From NCBI GenBank assembly GCA_965204055.1, contig OZ241967.1, forward strand, positions 834,144 to 898,143: a stretch of DNA of 64,000 nt, given 5' to 3'. Within the stretch, counting starts at the first letter, position 1. Every line of letters starts with the position of its first letter. Made by a program: the position numbers and the translations under genes. The notes below the pieces were generated by a model. That model saw nothing but the letters and a program-made list of their open reading frames with translations, was not told where the DNA came from and ran no database searches. Positions 10,602-61,088 of this stretch are shown one piece after another. This DNA comes from Bdellovibrionales bacterium (lineage in GTDB: Bacteria > Bdellovibrionota > Bdellovibrionia > Bdellovibrionales > UBA1609).

Positions 10602-10916
10602 ATGATTATGAGAGTTTATATAAAATATCTGCTTTTTATAGGGCTTTTTAGTTTTTTGTTTATTTCCTGTGGAGAGGGAGAGAAAACAAAAGACTCTAAT
10701 AATAAAACCACCAGTGGAAAAACTAATAGTTCAATAAAGAAGGAAACTCCAGCAACTAATATTAAGGTTGAGGGGCAATCTGTGACTGTGCTTTGCCAGT
10801 GCGATAATAAGAGCTTTGTTCGAGGATCGGGGGATGATCAAAATTCAGCTCAAGAAAATGCTAAAAGTAAATGTTCTGATAAAACCGCATCTGTTAAAAA
10901 TTGTAGAAGCTTTTAA
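10602..10916 (+). CDS. small secreted protein or possible lipoprotein, paralog of the preceding gene
   Basis: Signal peptide ending FLFISCGEG (lipobox-like). VTVLCQCDN...NSAQENAKSKC parallels ATVQCVCEL...LSAQLAEEEARAIC in the upstream protein. Confidence 0.6.
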   Translation: MIMRVYIKYLLFIGLFSFLFISCGEGEKTKDSNNKTTSGKTNSSIKKETPATNIKVEGQSVTVLCQCDNKSFVRGSGDDQNSAQENAKSKCSDKTASVKNCRSF

Positions 10917-36682: not shown

Positions 36683-37050
36683 ATTCCTCTGTAAAGCCAA
36701 GTACTTGGCTTTACAGTCTCGCGCTTCAGTGGGAATCTCTTGACTCTAAAACCGCAAAAAAGCTTTTTTTCAAAATCAATATCTTACTATATGCAAGATA
36801 GAGAGCATATTAGAAGATATTTTTATAACATACTGGAATCACTAAAACTTTTTATTTTACTAAAGTAAAGAAAAAAAGGTGGAGATTGTATTTTTTTTAA
36901 ATAGGTGTGAATTTTTTACATACCCTCATATAAATATTTTACAGGAATTATTCCTCCGTGCAAAATCTTTATTATTTTCTCTAAACTGAAAAGTCCAACT
37001 GCTTACTTTTTAGTTCTGCCTTGAGCTGGAGTTTTGCCGGTTTGGAGCAA
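36683..37050. repeat. degenerate MITE-derived modules downstream of lipB
   Basis: Hairpin CTGTAAAGCC-AAGTACTT-GGCTTTACAG (36689-36716). TTCAGTGGGAATCTC module. A TIR-like AATTATTCCTCCGTGCAAAATC at 36947, followed by a decayed copy of the hairpin and the GAGCTGGAGTTTTGCCGG module. Confidence 0.4.
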
Positions 37051-37100
37051 AATAAGTTCTGTGTTACTTTGTTATAACAATTTTTTTCACTTTCCACAGA

Positions 37101-38205: not shown

Positions 38206-38601
38206 TTGTCTAAAATTCCTGTTGAATTTCGAAAACTCATGTTAAACTATGGGATAAAGATATTGGACGCTCATTCGCCTCGCATTCAAAGAGCTTATAA
38301 AAGGCTTAAGAGCCGTGGAGCTATAAAACTACTTTCAGAGATATGGAGTATAAAAAAACCTGATCCGGAAAAGGTTCGAGACATTTTTATTGAGTTTAAA
38401 GATCTTTTAAAGAAAGCCAAGGGGCAAGAAAAAAAGAACACAGTTTTAAAGATATTGGAGTATTTGACAGACAATACTGGTTTGGATTTAAAAACATGGA
38501 AAAAAGCGGAAGAGTTAATTGTGGAAGAGGGAATTTTAACCAAAGGAGGGATTATGGATATAAGAGAGCATATTAAAGAAAAAGGTCGTTGGGAAGATTA
38601 A
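38206..38601 (+). CDS. hypothetical protein (possibly frameshifted)
   Basis: TTG-initiated 131-aa ORF. A 35-codon ATG ORF (38106-38213) overlaps its start in another frame, so a single gene broken by a frameshift is possible. No recognisable domain. Confidence 0.35.
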   Translation: MSKIPVEFRKLMLNYGIKILDAHSPRIQRAYKRLKSRGAIKLLSEIWSIKKPDPEKVRDIFIEFKDLLKKAKGQEKKNTVLKILEYLTDNTGLDLKTWKKAEELIVEEGILTKGGIMDIREHIKEKGRWED

Positions 38602-48970: not shown

Positions 48971-49115
48971 TTATCACGGGTGACTAATTAGTTGCCCGTG
49001 ATAAAATATGTTTTCTTAAGAAAAAAACTTGCTTTGCTTCAAAACAAGCGTGGATTCCCGCTTACGCGGGAATGACAGCGAGGACGAACAAGCTTTTTCA
49101 CGGGCGATTAATTAG
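48971..49115. mobile_element. MITE (129 bp) with an abutting solo TIR
   Basis: The full element at 48987-49115 has TIRs AATTAGTTGCCCGTGATAAAA and CTTTTTCACGGGCGATTAATTAG, with internal palindrome ATTCCCGCTTACGCGGGAAT (49054-49073). An extra inverted TIR, TTATCACGGGTGACTAATT (48971-48989), abuts it. Confidence 0.6.
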
Positions 49116-49362
49116 TTAAAGCGATTTGTAAGACCATAGTCCTATTTATGAAATATAGATCTGTTAAACAGTATTTTTATTTGCTGATTGTGGGCTGTTC
49201 AATAGTCTTATTTATGAAGTGCAGACCTATCAAAAATCTGCATATATGGGACAATTTACAAGACTTTATTAGCGATTCCTGCGTGTTCTAATAGTCAAAC
49301 ATCTGCATATATGGGACAATTTACAAAACAACTTAAAAACTACTTCTATGAGGTCAAAATAA

Positions 49363-49803
49363 ATGAGTGATAATAAAATAGTCAGTTTTATCTGGCAAGT
49401 GGCTGAGCTTTTGCGTGGCCCTTATCGTCCCAATCAATATAAAAAAGTTATACTTCCTCTTATAGTTTTAAGAAGGCTGGATTGTGTATTAGAGCCAACA
49501 AAAGAGAAGGTCTTAACAAAAGAAAAAAGTTTAAAAAAAAGCAAAATGAGAAACATAGAATCTATTTTAAATAGAGTAGCTGGTCAAAAATTTTATAACA
49601 AAAGCCATTTTACTTTTGAAAAGTTGAAAGCTGATCCAGATAACATTTCAGCTAATCTTACAAATTTTATAAAAGGTTTTTCTGAAAGAGCCAGGAAAAT
49701 TATTGAACATTTTAATCTTGAAAAAGAGATTGCGGAAATTGAGGCAGATTTAAAAGAGATTGAGGAAGAGATTACAGAGATATTATTGGAGACAGTGGGA
49801 TGA
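49363..49803 (+). pseudogene. hsdM: type I R-M methyltransferase HsdM, in-frame internal deletion remnant
   Basis: The N-terminal HsdM_N domain is present (IVSFIWQVAELLRGPYRPNQYKKVILPLIVLRRLDCVL). It joins directly to a short coiled C-terminal tail. At 146 aa it lacks any SAM-binding or NPPF/Y catalytic motifs. Confidence 0.75.
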
Positions 49804-50858
49804 GTAAAAAAAGAAGTGTGGGAAGCAGTATGATGGAGTTTCTTATTTTTAAAGAGCCATCCGATGGGCCTCAAATTGAAGTCCGCTATGAAAAGGGCAC
49901 TATATGGCTCACACAAAAGCTTATGGCAGAGTTATTTTCTGTGGAAAGATCAGTTATTACAAAGCATTTGGCCAATATTTTTAGCGAAGGGGAGCTGAAC
50001 AAAAATTCAGTATGTGCAAAATTTGCACATACTGCCCCAGATGAAAAAAGCTATAACACCCTGTTTTATAGCTTGGATGCTATTATTTCTGTAGGTTATC
50101 GAGTTAATTCTCACCGGGCGACCCAATTTCGCCAATGGGCCACCCATATTTTAAGAGAATTTGCCATTAAAGGTTATATTTTAGACAAAAAAAGAATGGA
50201 AAACGGCTATTTTCTGGGAGAGGACTATTTTGAACAGTTACTTTCTGAAATCCGGGAAATCCGTCTGAGTGAAAGGCGTTTTTATCAAAAAATCACTGAT
50301 ATTTACACAACCAGCATAGACTACGATAAGGATGCGCCTACCACCCGTGAATTTTTTGCCAAAGTGCAAAATAAGCTTCATTTTGCTGTTCATGGCAAGA
50401 CTTCTGCGGAGCTTATCAGGCAGAGGGCGGGCAGCAAAAAACAAAATATGGGCCTCACAAATTGGGCTAAAAGTCCTGATGGCAAGATTTTAAAAACGGA
50501 TGTTTCTATCGCCAAGAATTATCTTAATTCAGAAGAATTATCAGCTTTAGGTAGAATTGTAAGTGCTTATCTGGACCTGGCAGAAGAAAGAGCTAAGCGC
50601 AAGATTCCTATGACTATGGAGGATTGGGCTAATAGGTTAGATCGTTTTTTGGAGTTTGACGAAAGAGAAATTTTAAAAGATTCTGGAAAAATCAGCCATG
50701 AGTTGGCAAAAAGCTTTGCAGAAAGTGAGTTTGAAAAATATCGTATCATTCAGGACAAGCTTTTTGAATCTGATTTTGATCAGGAAGTTGGGAAATTGGA
50801 AAAGCAGTTAAGAGAAAAACAGAGCGTTGTTAGTCAAAAAACAGATAGAAAAAAATAA
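49800..50858 (+). CDS. rhuM: RhuM-family protein
   Basis: IEVRYEKGTIWLTQKLMAELF...SVCAKF...DAIISVGYRVNSHRATQFRQWATHILREFAIKGY is characteristic of RhuM. The ATGA at 49800-49803 overlaps the hsdM remnant stop. Confidence 0.85.
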   Translation: MSKKRSVGSSMMEFLIFKEPSDGPQIEVRYEKGTIWLTQKLMAELFSVERSVITKHLANIFSEGELNKNSVCAKFAHTAPDEKSYNTLFYSLDAIISVGYRVNSHRATQFRQWATHILREFAIKGYILDKKRMENGYFLGEDYFEQLLSEIREIRLSERRFYQKITDIYTTSIDYDKDAPTTREFFAKVQNKLHFAVHGKTSAELIRQRAGSKKQNMGLTNWAKSPDGKILKTDVSIAKNYLNSEELSALGRIVSAYLDLAEERAKRKIPMTMEDWANRLDRFLEFDEREILKDSGKISHELAKSFAESEFEKYRIIQDKLFESDFDQEVGKLEKQLREKQSVVSQKTDRKK

Positions 50859-50934
50859 AGAAAATGGTTTATCCAAAATCCAGAAGAGTATTGGCCAATG
50901 AAAATTAAAGGCAAATGGGCCATGAGGCGGTGAA

Positions 50935-52521
50935 ATGAAAAAAATATCTTATACAAAGTATAAAGATTCTGGTATAGAATGGCTTGGGAAAATCCCAGAA
51001 CATTGGAAAATAAAAAGGTTAAAATTTTTATTATCTAAACCATTAAAATATGGTGCAAATGAATCTGCTGAATATGACGAGCCTTCATGGCCAAGATATG
51101 TGAGGATTACTGATATAGATGAAAATGGTATGTTAAAAAAAGAAACTTTTAAATCTATTCCTAAAGAAATAGCATACCAATATTTATTGAAAGATGATGA
51201 CATATTGTTTGCTCGTAGTGGTGCTACTGTTGGAAAAACTTTTCTTTATCAAAAGTGTTATGGGCAAATTGCATTTGCTGGATATCTAATTCGTGCAAGA
51301 TTTGAAATGTCGGATAATATCCCAAAATTTATTTACTATTTTTGTCAGTCGCAAGTTTATTGGAAATGGATTAAAAATAATTCTATACAAGCTACCATTC
51401 AAAATATTAGTGCTGAAAAATATTCTAACTTATATATATCCTTGCCTGATATATATGAACAAAAATCTATTACTATCTTCCTGAATAAAGCAACTTCTTG
51501 GATTGATTCCTTGATAGAAAAAATTAAAAAATCTATCACTCTTTTAAAAGAATACCGCTTGGCTTTAATCACTTCCGCAGTCACTGGACAAATTGATGTT
51601 CGTAAATCCCAAGCACAAGAAATAACAGTTCAAGCCCAAAAGACAGAAAGACAAAAACTTGCCAACTCTTTAAAAGTTCTGGATTTCCGCTTTCGCGAGA
51701 ATAACCGCCATGTCGGCGGTGACAAAGTTGCTCTGGCTCTTGTGTCTGATCATGAATTTGCAACCAAGCTACAAAGAGATTCCCGCTTTCGCGGGAATGA
51801 CCGCCGTGTCGGCGGTGACAAAGTCGCTGTAGCTCTTGTATCTGATCGTGACTCTATGTCTAAGTCACAAAAAGATTCCCGTTTTTGCGGGAATAACAAG
51901 CTTGTTGCTAAAAAAAGATCAAAAAAGTTAGCTTCACCTATATTTAAAAAAGCTGTTTTTGGAGCAGAAATTGTTGCTCAGTTAAAAGATGATCCTCATT
52001 TTGGCAGAACAAAATTTATGAAAACCCTTTATTTGTGTGAAGCTCATTTGCAAATCCCTCTAAAAGGAGAATACAAAAGAGAAGCCGCAGGACCTTTAGA
52101 TAGTTCTATTTATACAATAGAAGGGATTATGAAAAGAAACAAATGGTTTGAGGTTGTTAAAACAGGTTCTATGTTCAAATACAAACCTTTTAAAAACCCT
52201 GATGGACATAAGCAGTATTTTAATAAATACTGGGGAGATTATACAAAGGAATTAAACCGGCTTTTATCTATTATGAAGAATTTTACAACGGAACAATCAG
52301 AAATTGTAGATACCATTTATGCCGTATGGAATGATTTTTTATTGGAAGGGAAAAAACCCTCAGTTAGTGAAATTGTTTATGAAGTAAAAAACAACTGGCA
52401 TAAAAGAAAAAAAAGATTTTCTGATAATCAACTGCAAAAAGCCATTCAGTGGATGAAACAGCAAAATCTTGTTCCTAAAGGTTATGGACCTAAAACTAAA
52501 ACTTTAGAGGAAACAAAATGA
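50935..52521 (+). CDS. hsdS: chimeric ORF: half-size HsdS, a repeat-derived linker, and a Panacea(DUF4065)-like C-terminal module
   Basis: The N-terminus (YKDSGIEWLGKIPEHWKIKRLKFLL, DDILFARSGATVGKTFLY, LLKEYRLALITSAVTGQIDVRK) is one HsdS TRD plus a conserved helix. Then 96-bp GC-rich repeats are translated as DSRFRGNDRRVGGDKVA.ALVSD. Then comes GRTKFMKTLYLCEAH...AAGPLDSSIY. The Panacea assignment is tentative. Confidence 0.65.
   Translation: MKKISYTKYKDSGIEWLGKIPEHWKIKRLKFLLSKPLKYGANESAEYDEPSWPRYVRITDIDENGMLKKETFKSIPKEIAYQYLLKDDDILFARSGATVGKTFLYQKCYGQIAFAGYLIRARFEMSDNIPKFIYYFCQSQVYWKWIKNNSIQATIQNISAEKYSNLYISLPDIYEQKSITIFLNKATSWIDSLIEKIKKSITLLKEYRLALITSAVTGQIDVRKSQAQEITVQAQKTERQKLANSLKVLDFRFRENNRHVGGDKVALALVSDHEFATKLQRDSRFRGNDRRVGGDKVAVALVSDRDSMSKSQKDSRFCGNNKLVAKKRSKKLASPIFKKAVFGAEIVAQLKDDPHFGRTKFMKTLYLCEAHLQIPLKGEYKREAAGPLDSSIYTIEGIMKRNKWFEVVKTGSMFKYKPFKNPDGHKQYFNKYWGDYTKELNRLLSIMKNFTTEQSEIVDTIYAVWNDFLLEGKKPSVSEIVYEVKNNWHKRKKRFSDNQLQKAIQWMKQQNLVPKGYGPKTKTLEETK
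51683..51894. repeat. 96-bp tandem repeat (~2.2 copies) built from GC-rich palindromes
   Basis: ATTTCCGCTTTCGCGAGAAT at 51683, ATTCCCGCTTTCGCGGGAAT at 51779 and ATTCCCGTTTTTGCGGGAAT at 51875. The first two are followed by ACCGCC-N5-GGCGGT. The same ATTCCCGC...GCGGGAATGAC core is present in the MITEs at 49054 and 57095. Confidence 0.9.
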
Positions 52522-53624
52522 AAACAAAGTTTTTACCAAAATTTAAAATTACAAAGTCCCTACTCAACCATTTAATGGAAATTGAGCAGGCCAGAGGTTT
52601 TTTGAAAGCCGCCCATTTATCCCCTCAATGGATCAAAAAAATGAGTCAAAAAAGCTTTTTATTGGAAGCGCACCACACTACCCATATAGAAGGAACACAG
52701 CTTACTTTTGAACAATCAAAAAGAATTTTAGCTGGTAAAAAACTTATATCCGATGCCAATAAAGAGGATATAAAAGAAGTTCAAAACTATAAAGATGCCT
52801 TTAACCTTATATCTTCTCTAAGTAGCAATAAATCAACAAAACTTGGAGAACCACCAATTACAGAAACTCTTATTAAACAGATTCATAAAGAACTGGTTAA
52901 AGGAGTGCGGGGAGGGAGTGCTCAACCCGGAAGATACAGGAGCATACAAAATTATATTGGCAACTCTGTCACCAAAGAGATTATTTACATACCTCCTAAG
53001 CCAAAGGAAGTGCCAGCTCTTATGAAAGATTTTGCGAAATGGATCAATCAAGAATCGGATATTCATCCTGTTTTAAAAAGTGGTATTATTCAATTTCAGT
53101 TTGTGCATATTCATCCCTTTGTGGATGGCAATGGACGCACATCGCGATTGCTTTGCACAGCTTTTCTTTATCAAAAAGACTATGATTTTAAAAAGCTTTT
53201 TTCTATTAGTGAGTATTACGACAAAGACAGACAAAATTTTTACAAGGCCATTCAGTCTGTCAGAAATAATAATATGGATATGACGGGTTGGTTAGAGTAT
53301 TTTGTTAAAGGTTTTTTATTTCAAATGAATTTAGTTATGGATATTGGAAAAAAAGTTATTTTTAAAGATGCTTTAATACAAGACTACAATTTATCTCAAA
53401 GGCAAGGTGTTATTATTGAGCATATTTTAGAGAACGGAAAACTCTTTCCAAAAGATTTTGAAGAATTGAAAAAGGAAATGCAAAAAGTGAGTAAAACAGC
53501 CACCGGTAAAAAAGTAACAATCACTAAAAGAACTCTGCAAAGAGATTTGAAAGATATGGTAGATAAAAAAATTATTAAGGTAGAAGGAAAGACCAATCGA
53601 CAATTTTACCGCCTTTTAAAATAG
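52518..53624 (+). CDS. Fic family protein (Fic_N plus Fic core plus C-terminal wHTH-like region)
   Basis: Fic motif HPFVDGNGRTSR. N-terminal inhibitory-type motif TTHIEG ([ST]xxxE[GN]). The start overlaps the upstream stop (ATGA). Confidence 0.9.
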   Translation: MKTKFLPKFKITKSLLNHLMEIEQARGFLKAAHLSPQWIKKMSQKSFLLEAHHTTHIEGTQLTFEQSKRILAGKKLISDANKEDIKEVQNYKDAFNLISSLSSNKSTKLGEPPITETLIKQIHKELVKGVRGGSAQPGRYRSIQNYIGNSVTKEIIYIPPKPKEVPALMKDFAKWINQESDIHPVLKSGIIQFQFVHIHPFVDGNGRTSRLLCTAFLYQKDYDFKKLFSISEYYDKDRQNFYKAIQSVRNNNMDMTGWLEYFVKGFLFQMNLVMDIGKKVIFKDALIQDYNLSQRQGVIIEHILENGKLFPKDFEELKKEMQKVSKTATGKKVTITKRTLQRDLKDMVDKKIIKVEGKTNRQFYRLLK

Positions 53625-53629
53625 GGTTA

Positions 53630-53707
53630 AACTTGCGACAAACTTGCGACAAGCTTGCGACAAACTTGCGACAAGCTTGCGACAAACTTGCGACAAACTT
53701 TGCGACA
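53630..53707. repeat. 11-bp tandem repeat x7 (A[A/G]CTTGCGACA)
   Basis: Units start at 53630, 53641, 53652, 53663, 53674, 53685 and 53696; the last has one extra T. Lies between the fic stop (53624) and the SD/GTG of the hsdR remnant (53733). Confidence 0.95.
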
Positions 53708-53861
53708 TATTGTAACACAAGGAGGTGTCTAAGTGTCTGATAATACTAAAGAAATCGCCTTTGAGAAGGCTATAGAATGGCACTTATTAAATAAAGGTGG
53801 ATATAGTAAAGGAAAAAGAGAACAATTTGACCCCGTTCGAGGGATGGATCCTGAATTTTAA

Positions 53862-54432
53862 TCTTCACGGGTTTAATTCCCCGTGGCTTGCCACGCTCCT
53901 TATAAGGCGTTAGCCTTATTATATGGGGAAGTATATTTATAAAAGTCACAATGTATCGATTTTGCTTTATCATTTAGTATGTCCGATAAAGTATAGAAAG
54001 CTTGTGTTGTCGGATAAAGTTTCGCTGGAATTAAAGTGGATATGTAAAGAGATTAGTCAGCGTTATGAGATGGAGTTTATAGAGATAGGTTTAGATGGGG
54101 ATCATGTTCATTTTTTGATTCAGTCTGTGCCGATGTATAGTCCTACACGGATTTGTCGGATAGTGAAGAGTTTAACGGCTCGTGAGTTATTTAGGCGGTG
54201 TCCTGATGTGAAGAAGTTTTTGTGGGGTGGTGAGTTTTGGACGAAGGGATATTTTATAAGCACGGTGGGTCATCATGGTGATGAGCAGAAGATCAGTGAT
54301 TATGTGAAGAATCAAGGTAATAAGTCAGGTTATAAGAAGATTTACAGTCAGCAACTGCGGTTGTTTTGAGAGCACAGATATTGGCGATAGACAACAGTGA
54401 TACCCCGTGGCTTGCCACGGGGAGGCTTCATT
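53862..54432 (+). mobile_element. IS200/IS605-family element (tnpA only)
   Basis: Subterminal hairpins CCCCGTGGCTTGCCACG (53879-53895) and CCCCGTGGCTTGCCACGGGG (54403-54422) flank a Y1 transposase gene. No terminal inverted repeats, as expected for this family. Boundaries are approximate. Confidence 0.8.
53923..54369 (+). CDS. tnpA: IS200/IS605 family Y1 (HUH) transposase TnpA
   Basis: 148 aa with YHLVCPIKYRK, HUH motif in GDHVHFLIQ, and catalytic Tyr region TKGYFISTVG. Confidence 0.9.
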   Translation: MGKYIYKSHNVSILLYHLVCPIKYRKLVLSDKVSLELKWICKEISQRYEMEFIEIGLDGDHVHFLIQSVPMYSPTRICRIVKSLTARELFRRCPDVKKFLWGGEFWTKGYFISTVGHHGDEQKISDYVKNQGNKSGYKKIYSQQLRLF

Positions 54433-54519
54433 TGATTTTATTAAAGAAACTACCAAGAAGAGACTCAGGTCCTTCTTATTATTTTGATGATGATGTTACT
54501 CTTCAGTATTACCGCCTCC

Positions 54520-54784
54520 AGAGAATAAGCGAAAGTTCTATCTCTCTTGAGAGTGGGATAGAAAGTGAAGTATCTGGGCCTACCTCTGTAGGAACAGGAG
54601 TATCAATAGATGAAACCATTGAACTTTCTCATCTGATAGATATTTTAAATGAGCGGTTTGGAACAAGCTTTACACCGGCAGATCAACTGTTCTTGGATTC
54701 CATTAAGGAAGATGCGGTTGCTGATTCTAATTTAAGAGAGGTAGCAATGGCTAATCCGATGGAAAATTTTGGATATATTTTTTT
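54520..54784. repeat. 265-bp direct repeat, copy 1 (target-site duplication of the IS1634-like element)
   Basis: AGAGAATAAGCGAAAG...GGATATATTTTTTT reads identically to 56736-57000 by eye. It ends exactly at the left IR. Confidence 0.95.
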
Positions 54785-56735
54785 CCTGACTTCAGCACAA
54801 CGCAATGCAATAAATGAGTGATTTCCGATATTTACAAATTTTTGGGGGAACACATTTTTAAGATTTAGTTCAAGAAGTGGAGATAAATTTAGACACTCTT
54901 TTAAGACCTAAGGCCTCGTATATGGATCTTATCTCTTGTGTGCTTTTAGAGGGCATACGATAAAGATTTTTGTTTGCGTCCTCTATAAGGCTATATTGAT
55001 CTCTTTTTAAAATCTCTCTCATCTGCCTTATGCTGAAGTTTAATCCTCTTTGTTCCATCCGATACTTCATAGTATAGGAAAGAGAGTAAGCTAAGAAGCA
55101 TATAGCTATATGGGACTCTATTCTTTTCCTCTTCCAATGGTAAATGGGTCTCATCTTAAGGTTGTGTTTGCACACACGAAAAGCCTCTTCTATCTTCCAA
55201 AGTCTCCTGTATCGGGTCAGTATCTCTTGAGGGGTTTGCTCTGTTCTTATGTTGGTTATTACTCCATGCAGACCATCCCACTGACTATCTTCTTTTATCT
55301 TTTGTTCGTTTAATGTAGCTTTTGTCTTTTGAACTGTGACATACTTTTTTGTTCCATAATTAGAGATAAGGCTTTTTATAGGAATTTGGTTTTTCTTTAC
55401 TTTTTTCATCAGTCTTTCAATGAGTCTTAGTCTATCGGACTTGTTCTTCTTGGCTCTCTTCTTAGAGTAGCTGACAATCAGTCTTCTTTCCTTATGCTCA
55501 AACTCCTTTATCCAATGAAACTCATTGGCCACAACAGCGGGTTTAAAGTCTTGGTTTAATATCTCCTCTTTTTTAGTTTTAGAAAGAGTTTTTAGTTTAC
55601 AGGCCACTACATACTGAATACCCTCTTCTTCCATAAGCTTAAGGTTTTTTTCATTAAACATAGCTCTATCAGCGACTAATACCGCCTTTTTAACAGTGAA
55701 TCTTTGTTTTAGCTTTTTCACTGTGGAGATAAGGGTAGAACCTTCGCTTGTGCTTCCTGGAAAAAGCTCATAGCTTAGAGGGTGGCCTTCTTGGTTGGTG
55801 ATAAGGGCTAAGACGACTTGAGTCTCTTTAAACTTTAAGTCTTTGCTAAAGCCGAACTGTCTTAGGTCATCTTCTTCAAAGCTTTCAAAGTAAAGGGTGG
55901 TGACATCAAAGAAGAGGACATCTACTTCTTGGTTAAAGAGGCTGAGGGTGTTTTTAGCTACTGTGTCTTTTACTTGGTCTATTCGGGGGTGAAGTCTATC
56001 CATCATTCGATACATCTGATCTAAGTGCACCTGTTCGTTAAAGTCTTCTTTTAAAGTCTCTACAGTTTTTCTTTTAGAATCAGGATGAGCTACACGAGAA
56101 AGGACGCAGTATTTTAAAATATCGTTCCACTGCTTATCTTTTTTAGTGTTTTGTATGAGAGTGTGGAAGCCTAACTGTTCATAGACAGCCCCACATACTC
56201 CTTTAATGCCATGATGAACACGTGCTTTTTCGTATGGTTTTTTAAGAGAGAAAAGGGAAGGAGACTTGGACTTTTTCTTTTGGTTCTGGTTCTTAGTTTT
56301 TTTGTTTAAAGGATCTTTGCTGTAGATGATCTCAGCCATACCGGGTAAAGCGGGTTGGCGATCATTGCAGAGCTTTATAATCATTCTTTGTGATATTTTT
56401 TCTAAAGAGGAAATGACTTCTGGTTTTGAAGAAGAGCCCACAAAATGTATTGTTTTATGTTTTGTTTTTAAACCTTCTCGGACAGACTCCACAATCCGAA
56501 AGGATTTAATTTTACGGTCTTTGTTTTTCCCTGAGATTTTTGTAGTAACTTTTACAAACATATTTTTACAGTGCCAGAAGAGATATAGGGTGTAAAGGTC
56601 TGGGAGTGGACTACAAGTGGTGTTTTTAGTATATTTTACCCTTCAAAACTACATGAAAACAGCCTGGCGGTGCATCAAAAACCCTAAAAAACATCAAAAT
56701 ATTTTTTTAACACATAGCGTTGTGCTGAAGTCGGG
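54785..56735 (-). mobile_element. IS1634-like (IS4 superfamily) insertion sequence, 1951 bp
   Basis: Terminal IRs CCTGACTTCAGCACAACGCAATG (54785-54807) and the reverse complement of 56713-56735, CCCGACTTCAGCACAACGCTATG (21/23 match). Single transposase ORF. Flanked by the 265-bp direct repeats. Confidence 0.85.
54870..56561 (-). CDS. IS1634/IS4-family DDE transposase
   Basis: 563 aa. N-terminus MFVKVTTKISGKNKDRKIKSFRIVESVREG resembles the IS1634-type start. DDE regions are VLFFDVTTLYFES, VLVADRAM and LWKIEEAFRVCKH. Confidence 0.85.
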   Translation of the reverse strand: MFVKVTTKISGKNKDRKIKSFRIVESVREGLKTKHKTIHFVGSSSKPEVISSLEKISQRMIIKLCNDRQPALPGMAEIIYSKDPLNKKTKNQNQKKKSKSPSLFSLKKPYEKARVHHGIKGVCGAVYEQLGFHTLIQNTKKDKQWNDILKYCVLSRVAHPDSKRKTVETLKEDFNEQVHLDQMYRMMDRLHPRIDQVKDTVAKNTLSLFNQEVDVLFFDVTTLYFESFEEDDLRQFGFSKDLKFKETQVVLALITNQEGHPLSYELFPGSTSEGSTLISTVKKLKQRFTVKKAVLVADRAMFNEKNLKLMEEEGIQYVVACKLKTLSKTKKEEILNQDFKPAVVANEFHWIKEFEHKERRLIVSYSKKRAKKNKSDRLRLIERLMKKVKKNQIPIKSLISNYGTKKYVTVQKTKATLNEQKIKEDSQWDGLHGVITNIRTEQTPQEILTRYRRLWKIEEAFRVCKHNLKMRPIYHWKRKRIESHIAICFLAYSLSYTMKYRMEQRGLNFSIRQMREILKRDQYSLIEDANKNLYRMPSKSTQEIRSIYEALGLKRVSKFISTS

Positions 56736-57000
56736 AGAGAATAAGCGAAAGTTCTATCTCTCTTGAGAGTGGGATAGAAAGTGAAGTATCTGGGCCTACC
56801 TCTGTAGGAACAGGAGTATCAATAGATGAAACCATTGAACTTTCTCATCTGATAGATATTTTAAATGAGCGGTTTGGAACAAGCTTTACACCGGCAGATC
56901 AACTGTTCTTGGATTCCATTAAGGAAGATGCGGTTGCTGATTCTAATTTAAGAGAGGTAGCAATGGCTAATCCGATGGAAAATTTTGGATATATTTTTTT
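56736..57000. repeat. 265-bp direct repeat, copy 2
   Basis: Starts immediately after the right IR and reads identically to 54520-54784. Confidence 0.95.
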
Positions 57001-57027
57001 TAAAAAGCTTGAAGATTTGTTTATAGA

Positions 57028-57151
57028 TAGTCGGTCGTGAAAAAGTATGTTGCAACAAAGTAAACATGGCTTACTTTGTCCTAAAACAGGCGAGATTCCC
57101 GCTCAAGGCGGGAATGACAGCAGGGGTGACAGGGTTTATCACGGGCCACTA
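57028..57151. mobile_element. MITE (124 bp) inserted in the hsdR 3' region
   Basis: TIRs TAGTCGGTCGTGAAAAAG and TTTATCACGGGCCACTA. Internal ATTCCCGCTCAAGGCGGGAATGACAGC (57095-). Removing exactly 57028-57151 rejoins the hsdR frame as ...LEDLFIENRMEQNEDII. Confidence 0.65.
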
Positions 57152-57363
57152 GAATAGAATGGAACAAAACGAAGATATAATAGCTAAGTTTATGAATGAA
57201 AGACAGTTCAAAGATATAGTTGGAAAGCATCTTTTAAAGAAAGTATATGAGCAAATTAGAAAGGAAAATTGCTCTTGATCTTCATATAAAAATGGTCAAA
57301 ACTGCGGTATTTCGCTGTTTTGAAACTTTTTGACAGACTTTAATCTTATGTTATAGTAGGAGT

Positions 57364-60466: not shown

Positions 60467-60915
60467 GTGCTAAATGCTCTTTTTGGTCGCATTCATCACA
60501 GGTCGCTTCTTCCCTTCGAATCCTGCATTATTGAATTAATTTATGGGGTGGCAGGATGTCGCCTACTTTGTTCGTTCGCATCCAGCTCACTCACTGCGCA
60601 GGCCCCCCTCAGTCGCTCAAAAAATCGTCAATGATTTTTTGTCCTGTGCTAAATGCTCTTTTTGGTCGCATTCATCACAGGTCGCTTCTTCCCTTCGAAT
60701 CCTGCATTATTGAATTAATTTATGGGGTGGCAGGATGTCGCCTACTTTGTTCGTTCGCATCCAGCTCACTCACTGCGCAGGCCCCCCTCAGTCGCTCAAA
60801 AAATCGTCAATGATTTTTTGTCCTGTGCTAAATGCTCTTTTTGGTCGCATTCATCACAGGTCGCTTCTTCCCTTCGAATCCTGCATTATTGAATTAATTT
60901 ATGGGGTGGCAGGAT
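60467..60915. repeat. 179-bp perfect tandem repeat, 2.5 copies, each carrying the last 15 nt of tRNA-Gln
   Basis: Units start at 60467, 60646 and 60825 and look identical by eye. ATGGGGTGGCAGGAT (complement of the tRNA 3' end) occurs at 60543, 60722 and 60901. Only the last copy continues into the tRNA body. Confidence 0.95.
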
Positions 60916-60972
60916 TCGAACCTGCGAATGACAGAACCAAAATCTGTTGGCTTACCACTTGCCGACACCCCA
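60901..60972 (-). tRNA. tRNA-Gln (anticodon UUG)
   Basis: Reverse complement is TGGGGTG TC GGCAAGTGGTAAGCC A ACAGA TTTTGGT TCTGT CATTC GCAGG TTCGAAT CCTGC CACCCCA T. The cloverleaf folds by hand and closely parallels the E. coli tRNA-Gln layout. CCA is not encoded. Confidence 0.9.
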
Positions 60973-61088
60973 TTAAGGAAAATATCTGTGATTTTAAAGA
61001 AAAAATCAAGCTTTTTTGCTGTTATTGTCTAAAGGGCAAAAAAGGAGGGGATTAAAACCTCGTTTTATTTCAGAACTTCATTTCAAAA

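What the first reader, a model, noticed from the sequence alone, without database searches (positions are those of the whole stretch)
49363..57278. Type I R-M operon with all three core genes gutted while the passenger genes stay open
The gene order is hsdM', rhuM, hsdS'-fusion, fic, hsdR'. hsdM keeps only its N-terminal domain plus a C-terminal tail (146 aa, no catalytic motifs, in-frame deletion). hsdS has one TRD. hsdR retains 42 N-terminal codons and ~170 C-terminal codons, and is hit by three different mobile elements. In contrast RhuM (352 aa), Fic (368 aa) and the Panacea-like module are uninterrupted. They are linked by ATGA overlaps at 49800 and 52518. This pattern suggests either selection on the passengers after loss of restriction, or recent collapse of the locus.
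Basis: partly seen in the sequence, partly recalled or inferred. Interest (0 to 1): 0.55.

Follow-up and report, generated by a model that had tools for sequence, protein, structure and literature searches.

The report
Decayed restriction operon with surviving passengers
A bacterial restriction-modification gene cluster has recently lost its methylase and nuclease genes to a deletion and three mobile elements, while its specificity gene and two defence-type passenger genes are still intact; this is an ordinary kind of gene decay, though unusually well documented here.

Summary
The features are real and lie at the stated coordinates. Against an intact relative (L003, a Bdellovibrionales MAG, 80-85% nt identity), hsdM carries a 1,569-nt (523-codon) in-frame deletion. 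hsdR keeps codons 1-41 and about 834-997 of 997. It is broken by an IS200/IS605 element that replaces 2.37 kb, by an IS1634-family element with a 265-bp perfect target duplication, and by a 125-nt MITE. The same one-TRD hsdS plus C-terminal module sits beside intact hsdM or hsdR in related loci (L169, L171). The module gives no match to the Pfam Panacea family. By fold and profile it resembles the DarG antitoxin C-terminal domain, and it is a widespread Pfam-less extension of restriction specificity subunits (1,729 clusters). dN/dS is the same in the remnants (0.15-0.18) and in the intact genes (0.14-0.15), so the collapse is recent. Open passengers are not statistically surprising (P about 0.1-0.3). 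An independently decayed homologous locus (L174) keeps fic and a TPR gene but has lost rhuM and the module. So only Fic (SoFic-like) shows a hint of independent retention. Verdict: ordinary recent R-M decay, modest interest.

The parts
49363..49803 (+). mini-hsdM: HsdM N-terminal domain (residues 1-125) joined in frame to the last 21 residues; the catalytic N6_Mtase domain is deleted
   Evidence: Pfam HsdM_N 9.9e-27 with no PF02384 hit. blastn: 49307-49737 matches L003 9948-10375 and 49738-50861 matches L003 11945-13068, giving a 1,569-nt deletion. The junction has short similarity, ATTGCAGAA versus ATTGAAGCAGA.
49800..50858 (+). rhuM, full length; its start overlaps the hsdM stop (ATGA)
   Evidence: PF13310 5e-108. 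PADLOC PDC-S05 2e-152, covering 2-338 of 342. 86% aa identity to the 352-aa L003 orthologue. Overlap shown.
50935..51681 (+). hsdS part of the 528-aa ORF: N-terminal conserved region, one TRD, C-terminal conserved helix
   Evidence: A single Methylase_S stretch at residues 55-202. PADLOC Specificity_I 3.6e-57. The same one-TRD architecture occurs in intact loci L169 and L171.
51682..51897 (+). in-frame 96-nt tandem repeat (2.2 copies) carrying a REP-like hairpin, within the linker between HsdS and the module
   Evidence: TRF period 96, 81% matches. Repeat families D3/D4. One unit fewer in L003 and none in L083 or L169.
51916..52521 (+). C-terminal module of the HsdS ORF (DarG-C-terminal-domain-like, no Pfam family); its stop overlaps the fic start (ATGA)
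   Evidence: AF2 pLDDT 91.6. Foldseek 7yk3_B/D E 4e-4, TM 0.55-0.58, and 7yk3_B is the DarG CTD. The module HMM hits the CTD of DarG-like proteins in L064 and L047. hhalign E 2e-4, probability 45%.
52518..53624 (+). fic, full length, with catalytic motif HPFVDGNGRTSR and inhibitory-helix motif TTHIEG present
   Evidence: PF02661 4.7e-23. PADLOC SoFic 3.2e-65, covering 16-348 of 361. dN/dS 0.12-0.14 against L003 and L174.
53629..53707 (+). 11-nt tandem array (AAACTTGCGAC, 7.1 copies) just upstream of the hsdR start; conserved in related loci
   Evidence: TRF. The same array is present in L002, L003 and L083.
53733..53855 (+). hsdR 5' remnant, 41 codons
   Evidence: tblastn to L083 HsdR residues 1-41, 71% identity. 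Homology to L003 ends at 53855.
53856..54436 (+). IS200/IS605-family element (tnpA 53923-54369) with hairpins near both ends; it replaces about 2.37 kb of hsdR
   Evidence: Y1_Tnp 1.5e-33 and NF033573 4e-36. Hairpins at 53878-53895 and 54402-54423. L003 17943-20314 has no counterpart in the window.
54437..54784 (+). hsdR 3' remnant, first piece (about residues 834-947)
   Evidence: blastn to L003 20315-20381 and L002 10462-10810. tblastn to L083 HsdR.
54785..56735 (-). IS1634-family insertion sequence (transposase 54870-56561, 563 aa)
   Evidence: NF033559 3.6e-109, 366 bits against a cutoff of 100. Inverted repeats of 36 nt, 81% complementary. At least 9 transposase variants on the same 2.31-Mb contig.
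56736..57000 (+). second copy of the 265-bp target duplication (identical to 54520-54784), which is hsdR sequence
   Evidence: Repeat family D1, 100% identity. Long variable direct repeats of 8-514 bp are reported for IS1634 and IS1549 (PMC2266710).
57001..57030 (+). hsdR remnant, 10 codons between the duplication and the MITE
   Evidence: blastn to L002 up to position 10840.
57031..57155 (+). 125-nt MITE-like insertion carrying the REP-like hairpin
   Evidence: Clean insertion relative to L002 at 10839/10840. Related copies at 49028-49105 and 37018-37090.
57156..57278 (+). hsdR 3' end (last about 40 codons plus stop)
   Evidence: tblastn to L083 HsdR residues 957-995, 72% identity.

Best explanation
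This is a type I restriction-modification operon that can no longer modify or restrict DNA. Its family has the gene order hsdM, passenger genes, hsdS with a DarG-CTD-like C-terminal module, fic, hsdR, and it occurs in Bdellovibrionales-like MAG lineages. hsdM lost its catalytic domain through one 1,569-nt internal deletion between short similar sequences. hsdR lost residues 42 to about 833 in association with an IS200/IS605 element. It was later hit by an IS1634-family element, very recently, and by a MITE. hsdS (one TRD plus module), rhuM and fic are structurally intact. The decay is recent compared with the divergence from the nearest intact relative. It took place in a genome where the IS1634-family element is multiplying. 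The intact state of rhuM and the S::module is best read as 'not yet hit'. Fic, a SoFic-like auto-inhibited AMPylase of the abortive-infection type, is probably kept by selection of its own, because it also survives in an independently decayed copy of the operon. Inferred but not shown: the stub operon is still transcribed from the hsdM promoter, and the in-frame mini-HsdM and the HsdS::module ORF are translated to their native stops. Those stops overlap the rhuM and fic starts (ATGA), which would keep translational coupling of the two passengers.
For: Deletion and insertion junctions were defined against L003, L001, L002 and L083. No catalytic domain remains in the mini-HsdM. No other hsdM or hsdR homologue lies in the 64-kb window. 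dN/dS of the remnants (0.15-0.18) equals that of the intact genes (0.14-0.15). Branch-specific synonymous:nonsynonymous counts on the window branch are no worse than on the L003 branch. The IS1634 target duplication is 265/265 identical. At least 9 variants of the IS1634 transposase are on the same contig. A one-TRD S::module lies beside intact hsdM or hsdR in L169 and L171. L174 is an independent decay of the same operon that retains fic and the TPR gene. Fic has an intact motif, a full-length SoFic HMM match and dN/dS of 0.12-0.14. SoFic is a toxic AMPylase acting by abortive infection (PMC12249575). RhuM, Fic and DarTG are known passengers inside type I operons (PMC9881135; PMC5179494).
Against: Only 64 kb of a 2.31-Mb genome was visible, so a second hsdM or hsdR elsewhere could still partner the intact HsdS. 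There are no expression or methylome data. The Fic-retention argument rests on two decayed loci only. Promoter-like sites in the region occur no more often than in shuffled sequence, so transcription of the stub operon is unproven. The sequence comes from a MAG-type assembly, and I could not check read support for the junctions.
Confidence: 0.72

Rival explanations
1. After restriction was lost, all the passengers (rhuM, module, fic) have been kept open by selection. The in-frame stubs of hsdM are themselves selected because they preserve translational coupling to the passengers.
For: All three passengers are full length, with ATGA overlaps to the upstream ORFs. The hsdM deletion is in frame. 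In-frame mini-HsdM ORFs that keep the native stop overlapping the next gene recur elsewhere: L174, L175-177 and P0008. In L174 the hsdS::module stub upstream of fic is also in frame.
Against: In L174 rhuM is broken, with a frame change, and the module is deleted. An in-frame deletion has a prior probability of 1/3. My search used the mini-HsdM as query, which favours in-frame examples. There is no dN/dS contrast between passengers and remnants. The chance that all disruptive events fall in hsdM or hsdR is about 0.1-0.3.
Confidence: 0.15
2. This is a purely neutral, very recent collapse. Nothing in the locus, fic included, is under selection any longer, and everything will erode.
For: The same evidence of recency applies. 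The passengers are short targets.
Against: Fic is intact in both independently decayed loci, while four or five neighbouring genes in L174 carry internal deletions. Fic shows dN/dS of 0.12-0.14 in all comparisons, although these comparisons are dominated by time before the decay.
Confidence: 0.2
3. The locus is still a working system. The intact one-TRD HsdS::module works as a homodimer with HsdM and HsdR supplied from another type I locus elsewhere in the genome, and the local hsdM and hsdR copies are redundant.
For: HsdS is intact and has an architecture seen in intact systems. A half-size S subunit can form a functional symmetric enzyme (engineered EcoR124I_NT, PMC3320862, abstract).
Against: No other hsdM or hsdR homologue lies in the 64-kb window. 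S subunits normally need M subunits of the same family. The rest of the genome could not be searched.
Confidence: 0.07
4. The apparent decay is an assembly artefact, arising from a chimeric MAG, collapsed repeats or misplaced IS copies.
For: The source is a single 2.31-Mb contig of metagenome type. The related long-read contigs L001 and L002 show frameshift-type errors.
Against: The lesions are large and structured and are not homopolymer frameshifts. They comprise an exact 523-codon deletion, an IS with inverted repeats and a family-typical long target duplication, a MITE with related copies elsewhere, and hairpin-ended IS200 boundaries. The flanking 64 kb is densely coding.
Confidence: 0.04

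Closest known systems
Type I R-M operons with embedded passenger defence or toxin genes (PrrC, DarTG, AbiE, Fic, RhuM, DUF1016)
   Same: Passenger genes lie between the hsd genes in the same orientation. RhuM and Fic between core hsd genes are listed in PMC9881135. [quoted passage not shown] Relatives carry Ymh/PD-Lambda-3_B, AbiE or HNH/TPR genes in the same slots.
   Different: Here the host system has lost hsdM catalysis and nearly all of hsdR, so the passengers outlive the R-M function.
IS- and deletion-driven pseudogenisation of R-M systems in genomes undergoing IS expansion
   Same: Multiple IS and MITE hits and internal deletions are confined to a dispensable defence locus, and the IS is present in many near-identical copies in the genome.
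   Different: The neighbouring 64 kb shows no general decay. The same operon type decayed independently in a second lineage, L174, in a similar 'stub' style.
SoFic (Fic-domain AMPylase, single-gene anti-phage abortive-infection system)
   Same: Full-length PADLOC SoFic HMM match at 3e-65, the catalytic HPFxDGNGRxxR motif and the inhibitory (S/T)xxxE(G/N) motif are all present. The mechanism is described in PMC12249575.
   Different: The score is far below the NCBIfam SoFic equivalog cutoff (80.6 against 550 bits). The gene is embedded in an hsd operon. No small downstream AS1-like antitoxin gene was identified.
DarG antitoxin C-terminal domain (PDB 7YK3 chains B/D)
   Same: It is the best structural match of the HsdS C-terminal module (probability 1.0, TM 0.55-0.58). 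The module profile aligns over about 150 residues with the CTD of macro-domain DarG-like proteins. Both occur in type I operons.
   Different: There is no macro domain and no DarT partner here. The domain is fused to specificity subunits (HsdS, MmeI-like, Type ISP, McrBC) and not to an ADP-ribosyl glycohydrolase. Sequence identity is only about 21%.
Panacea (DUF4065, PanA antitoxin domain)
   Same: It is a compact fold of helices plus a small beta-sheet, with a strongly conserved G-P motif in a strand (AAGPLD here; GPV in PanA, PMC8832971). Some PanA proteins neutralise Fic/Doc toxins.
   Different: PF13274 gives no match for the module or for 60 family members. The module occurs without Fic (L167, L168, L084), and Fic occurs without the module (L002).
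Rickettsia palindromic elements (in-frame palindromic repeat insertions in coding genes; from my own knowledge, Ogata et al. 2000)
   Same: A dispersed hairpin element lies in frame inside a protein-coding gene, in the HsdS-module linker, and is read through as peptide ('DSRFRGND').
   Different: Here the insert is tandemly amplified as a 96-nt unit and the host is a different lineage. Tolerance by the protein is inferred only from the open frame in two genomes (window and L003).

Membership tests
Functional type I R-M system | HsdM with an N6-adenine methyltransferase catalytic domain | tested here: not met
   Only PF12161 HsdM_N is found and PF02384 is absent. 523 codons are deleted relative to L003 and L001.
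Functional type I R-M system | HsdR with nuclease and SF2 helicase/translocase domains | tested here: not met
   Only residues 1-41 and about 834-997 of 997 remain, split by IS200, IS1634 and a MITE.
Functional type I R-M system | HsdS with TRD(s) and conserved regions | tested here: met
   One Methylase_S TRD with both conserved regions. The one-TRD form also occurs in intact loci L169 and L171.
Functional type I R-M system | Type I m6A methylation motif in the genome | not testable with these tools
   No methylome data were available.
RhuM family / PADLOC candidate PDC-S05 | Full-length match above the Pfam gathering score | tested here: met
   PF13310 scores 360.6 bits against a cutoff of 33.7. 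PDC-S05 2e-152.
SoFic defence system | Fic catalytic motif HxFx(D/E)GNGRxxR and a full-length SoFic profile match | tested here: met
   HPFVDGNGRTSR is in the translation. PADLOC SoFic 3.2e-65, with residues 7-363 matching model positions 16-348 of 361.
SoFic defence system | NCBIfam equivalog score (NF046030, cutoff 550 bits) | tested here: not met
   80.6 bits.
SoFic defence system | Anti-phage or toxic AMPylation activity | not testable with these tools
   This needs an experiment.
Panacea / DUF4065 antitoxin domain | Match to Pfam PF13274 | tested here: not met
   No hit at E<=10 for the module and none among 60 family members at E<=1. No profile-profile test against a DUF4065 alignment could be run.
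Panacea / DUF4065 antitoxin domain | Conserved two-gene pairing with a toxin | tested here: not met
   The module occurs without Fic in L167, L168 and L084-86, and Fic occurs without the module in L002.
DarG C-terminal (DarT-binding) domain | Fold and profile similarity to the DarG CTD | tested here: inconclusive
   Foldseek 7yk3_B/D E 4e-4, TM 0.55-0.58. HMM E 1.7e-3 among 8,111 ORFs. hhalign probability 45%, E 2e-4. The results agree with each other, but each one is weak.
DarG C-terminal (DarT-binding) domain | Association with a DarT toxin and a macro domain | tested here: not met
   No macro domain or DarT in the window locus or in L003, L083 or L167.
IS200/IS605 | Y1 (HUH) transposase and hairpins near the element ends | tested here: met
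   PF01797 1.5e-33 and NF033573 124 bits against a cutoff of 55. Hairpins at 53878-53895 and 54402-54423.
IS1634 family | IS1634-type DDE transposase, terminal inverted repeats and a target duplication | tested here: met
   NF033559 scores 366 bits against a cutoff of 100. Inverted repeats of 36 nt. The 265-bp duplication lies within the 8-514 bp reported for IS1634 and IS1549 (PMC2266710).

The most novel reading that the evidence does not exclude
The stub-style decay may not be random. When this operon type dies, internal in-frame deletions that keep the 5' and 3' ends of the hsd genes could be favoured, because they preserve transcription and stop-start (ATGA) translational coupling of an embedded abortive-infection toxin (the SoFic-like Fic). 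The passenger would then outlive its R-M host. Separately, the Pfam-less DarG-CTD-like domain fused to the specificity subunits of many restriction enzyme classes (type I S, MmeI-like, type ISP, McrBC; 1,729 clusters) may be an undescribed regulatory or sensor domain of restriction enzymes.
Probability: 0.15. Interest if true: 0.55.

Novelty: new member of a known kind. Interest (0 to 1): 0.3.

Why it matters
As it stands, this is a clean, well-dated example of how a type I R-M operon dies: one microhomology deletion plus IS and MITE hits. It also shows which embedded genes survive. That bears on the idea that toxin or abortive-infection passengers in R-M operons are semi-autonomous. Two by-products may matter more than the decay itself. 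The first is a large uncharacterised domain family (DarG-CTD-like) attached to the specificity subunits of several classes of restriction enzymes. The second is the recurrence of in-frame 'mini-HsdM' stubs whose stop still overlaps the next gene's start. Both are cheap to test experimentally. Neither is yet more than an observation.

Tried and rejected
- Exact look-ups of RhuM and of the mini-HsdM found no contig, so I could not obtain the source record or same-species strains.
- The metagenome scan with RhuM gave only relatives of 73% identity or less. No near-identical intact allele was found to date the decay directly.
- tblastn of this family's HsdM and HsdR against 80 RhuM loci was uninformative, probably because those loci carry other hsdM families. 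I relied on the literature instead.
- The promoter and terminator scan gave counts at shuffle level, so it was not used.
- The 'Panacea' label was tested and not supported: Pfam on the module at E<=10, Pfam on 60 family members, PHROGs, and a PDB sequence search.
- I considered the module plus Fic as an obligate antitoxin-toxin pair and rejected it, because each occurs without the other. No consistent neighbour of the module was found.
- A 'naturally short HsdM family' was rejected. The closest short hits are frameshift-split full-length genes, or they are independent deletions with different junctions.
- A 'MITE read-through artefact' as the origin of the HsdS-module fusion was rejected. The fusion exists without the repeat in L083 and L169, and in about 90 of the top 150 family representatives of 600-700 aa.
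- I first misread L003 hsdR as decayed, because the ORF listing omits ORFs that run off the locus end. tblastn showed one continuous frame.

Full report
**What is in the window.** Between 49363 and 57278 the + strand carries the following:
- a 146-aa ORF (49363-49803);
- a 352-aa ORF (49800-50858);
- a 528-aa ORF (50935-52521);
- a 368-aa ORF (52518-53624);
- a 42-codon ORF (53733-53861);
- a 148-aa ORF (53923-54369);
- a 151-aa ORF (54366-54821);
- short ORFs up to 57278.

A 563-aa ORF lies on the minus strand (54870-56561).

Pfam and NCBIfam assign these as follows:
- HsdM_N only for the 146-aa ORF, with no N6_Mtase domain;
- RhuM (5e-108);
- one Methylase_S stretch in the 528-aa ORF;
- Fic (4.7e-23);
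- an IS200 Y1 transposase;
- an IS1634-family DDE transposase (366 bits, cutoff 100).

The ATGA stop/start overlaps at 49800 and 52518 are present. In PADLOC, RhuM is the candidate system PDC-S05 (2e-152) and Fic matches the SoFic model over its full length (3.2e-65).

**Reference loci.**
- The closest genome locus is L003 (OZ241921.1, MAG Bdellovibrionales; 80-85% nt identity). Its gene order is hsdM (about 669 aa), rhuM (352), HNH/TPR (456), hsdS (701 aa: two TRDs, linker repeat and the same C-terminal module), fic, hsdR.
- L003's hsdR runs off the locus end but is one continuous frame.
- L083 gives a fully intact reference with HsdM of 668 aa and HsdR of 997 aa.
- L002 and L001 are more distant relatives with a Ymh (PD-Lambda-3_B) passenger in place of RhuM.

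**Junctions.**
- hsdM: blastn gives window 49307-49737 = L003 9948-10375 and 49738-50861 = L003 11945-13068. The deletion is therefore 1,569 nt, exactly 523 codons, and it is the same size relative to L001. The two breakpoints share short similarity, ATTGCAGAA and ATTGAAGCAGA.
- hsdR, 5' side: homology to L003 stops at 53855.
- hsdR, 3' side: homology resumes at 54437, which corresponds to L003 20315. About 2.37 kb is replaced by a 581-nt IS200/IS605 element with hairpins near both ends.
- IS1634: the IS1634-family element (54785-56735, 36-nt inverted repeats) is flanked by a 265-bp direct duplication at 100% identity. Duplications of 8-514 bp are documented for IS1634 and IS1549 (PMC2266710).
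- MITE: a 125-nt MITE (57031-57155) is a clean insertion relative to L002 and has related copies at 49028-49105 and 37018-37090.
- In protein terms, hsdR keeps residues 1-41 and about 834-997 of 997.

**hsdS is not gutted.**
- The window ORF has the N-terminal conserved region, one TRD, the C-terminal conserved helix, a linker and a roughly 200-aa module.
- P0135 (418 aa, the closest family member) has the same one-TRD plus module layout. It lies in L169/L170 in the order hsdM (669 aa, intact), rhuM, hsdS::module, fic, which is the window's gene order.
- P0153 (425 aa) lies between an intact hsdM (588 aa) and an intact hsdR (991 aa) in at least three of the six contigs that carry it.
- A half-size S subunit can form a functional symmetric enzyme (EcoR124I_NT, PMC3320862, abstract).
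- One TRD is therefore a normal state, and hsdS groups with the intact genes.

**The C-terminal module.**
- It has no Pfam, NCBIfam or PHROG family. Its profile matches no PDB sequence.
- It does hit the C-termini of the PADLOC Specificity_I and MTase_I models.
- A profile search finds 1,729 clusters at the 50% identity level, mostly as the last ~250 residues of 600-700-aa proteins.
- Of 60 members scanned, 35 carry Methylase_S. Others carry MmeI, Type ISP, McrBC or N6_Mtase domains. None hits PF13274, the Panacea family.
- The AlphaFold model is confident (pLDDT 91.6). Its only significant PDB match is 7yk3 chains B/D (E 4e-4, TM 0.55-0.58), which are the DarG C-terminal domain.
- Independently, the module HMM picks out the C-terminal halves of two macro-domain DarG-like proteins that lie in type I loci L064 and L047 (E 1.7e-3 among 8,111 ORFs, about 150 aligned residues).
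- hhalign gives E 2e-4 and probability 45%.
- I therefore call it DarG-CTD-like, with moderate confidence.
- The resemblance to Panacea (a compact fold with a conserved G-P strand motif) remains an untested lead.
- The module is not an obligate partner of Fic. L167, L168 and L084-86 have the module without Fic, and L002 has Fic without the module.
- The linker contains an in-frame 96-nt repeat (2.2 copies) built around a REP-like hairpin. L003 has one unit fewer, and L083 and L169 have none.

**Age and selection.** NG86 dN/dS against L003:

| Segment | dN/dS |
|---|---|
| hsdM N-domain remnant | 0.18 |
| hsdM tail | 0.15 |
| hsdR first 41 codons | 0.16 |
| hsdS conserved region | 0.18 |
| rhuM | 0.14 |
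| module | 0.15 |
| fic | 0.14 |

dS ranges from 0.5 to 0.97.

Synonymous:nonsynonymous counts on the window branch, using outgroups:

| Gene | Window-branch S:N |
|---|---|
| hsdM_N | 13:14 |
| rhuM | 37:23 |
| fic | 38:29 |
| module | 17:20 |

The L003 branch, where all these genes are intact, is similar. The remnants therefore carry no detectable signature of relaxed selection, so the lesions are young relative to the divergence.

The perfect 265-bp duplication points the same way. So do the at least 9 transposase variants of the same IS on the same 2.31-Mb contig, which indicate a current IS expansion. The rest of the window is densely coding and holds no other copy of these IS elements.

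**Is 'passengers open, core dead' more than chance?** hsdM plus hsdR make up about 5 of about 8.8 kb of the ancestral operon. Four or five events all landing there has P of roughly 0.1. In one search I computed 0.14-0.30 with hsdS counted among the core genes. Once hsdR is dead, further hits in it are neutral. On its own the pattern is not significant.

**Comparative test of the selection hypothesis.** L174 (a 925-kb contig from the same metagenome series) is an independent decay of the L003-type operon:
- hsdM keeps residues 4-126 plus 610-667;
- rhuM keeps residues 64-142 plus 269-336, with a frame change;
- the HNH/TPR gene is intact;
- hsdS::module keeps residues 1-28 plus 492-521;
- fic is intact;
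- hsdR keeps residues 1-39 plus 344-367.

Fic is thus the only passenger intact in both decayed loci, while rhuM and the module are dispensable. Fic keeps its catalytic motif and has dN/dS of 0.12-0.14 in all pairs. SoFic-type Fic proteins are toxic AMPylases that act by abortive infection (PMC12249575). Passenger toxin or Abi genes inside type I operons are well known (PMC5179494; PMC9881135).

**The 'naturally short family' test.**
- The nearest short HsdM_N proteins are frameshift-split full-length genes.
- Several others are in-frame fusions of the N-domain to the C-terminal tail, but with different junctions: the window at 125|~649, P0007 at 126|610, P0073 at 116|~609, and P0008.
- P0106 fuses HsdM_N to the HsdR tail.
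- These are independent deletions and not a family.
- Their native stops still overlap the start of the next gene, which prompts the translational-coupling idea.
- My search query biased the sample towards in-frame cases, and 1/3 of deletions are in frame by chance.

**Verdict.**
- It is wrong in treating hsdS as damaged and the fusion as anomalous.
- The Panacea label is not supported.
- The best explanation is a recent deletion- and IS-driven loss of a type I R-M system in a genome with an expanding IS. Fic is probably retained on its own merit, and rhuM and hsdS::module are simply not yet hit.
- This is an ordinary phenomenon, a new member of a known kind.
- The DarG-CTD-like domain family and the recurrent stub pattern are the parts that deserve follow-up.

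Noticed in passing
window 53629-53707; L002 7877-7950; L003 17719-17795; L083 12125-12185: An 11-nt tandem array (AAACTTGCGAC, 7.1 copies) lies directly upstream of the hsdR ribosome-binding site. It is conserved in the same position in three related loci, and in L083 it appears as the variant ACTAGTGACAA (about 5 copies). It could be an operator or leader element controlling hsdR.
   Followed up: partly
window 60467-60915 and tRNA-Gln 60900-60973 (minus strand): A 179-nt unit is repeated 2.5 times at 100% identity and overlaps the 3' end of the only tRNA gene in the window. This could be the footprint of an integration site.
   Followed up: no
window 49053-49073, 51682-51897, 57094-57116: The REP-like hairpin GATTCCCGC-N3-5-GCGGGAAT has 5 copies in the 64-kb window, and all lie in the hsd locus. 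Three of them sit in frame inside the hsdS::module linker as a 96-nt tandem unit read as 'DSRFRGND'. L003 has one unit fewer, and L083 and L169 have none.
   Followed up: partly
window 51916-52518; proteins P0121-P0281: The HsdS C-terminal module belongs to a large family with no Pfam entry (1,729 clusters at 50% identity). It is fused to type I S subunits and also to MmeI-like, Type ISP and McrBC proteins, and it occurs alone next to a MutH-like nuclease plus methylase (L084-86). Its fold and profile resemble the DarG C-terminal domain.
   Followed up: yes
P0007/L174 10001-10567; P0008; P0073/L175-L177; P0106: In-frame 'mini-HsdM' ORFs (N-domain plus C-terminal tail) recur with different junctions in unrelated samples. 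One of them is fused to the HsdR C-terminal tail. The native stop still overlaps the start of the next gene.
   Followed up: partly
L174 10001-14270: This is an independent decay of the same operon type. hsdM, rhuM, hsdS::module and hsdR are all reduced to N- plus C-terminal stubs by internal deletions, while the HNH/TPR gene and fic stay full length.
   Followed up: partly
L064 about 16.2-17.5 kb; L047 about 11.4-12.5 kb: Macro-domain DarG-like proteins are encoded about 6 kb downstream of hsdM in two proteobacterial-type loci. This fits the reported habit of DarTG inserting into type I operons.
   Followed up: partly
L003 502-2202; window 54785-56735: A 77%-identical IS1634-family element also lies about 8 kb upstream of hsdM in L003. 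The window genome carries at least 9 transposase variants of this IS on one 2.31-Mb contig.
   Followed up: partly
window 38448-38596 versus L003 1-149: The only flanking homology between the window and L003 outside the operon is a 149-nt stretch about 10 kb upstream of hsdM in both. The roughly 10 kb in between is unrelated, which suggests a variable island upstream of the operon.
   Followed up: no
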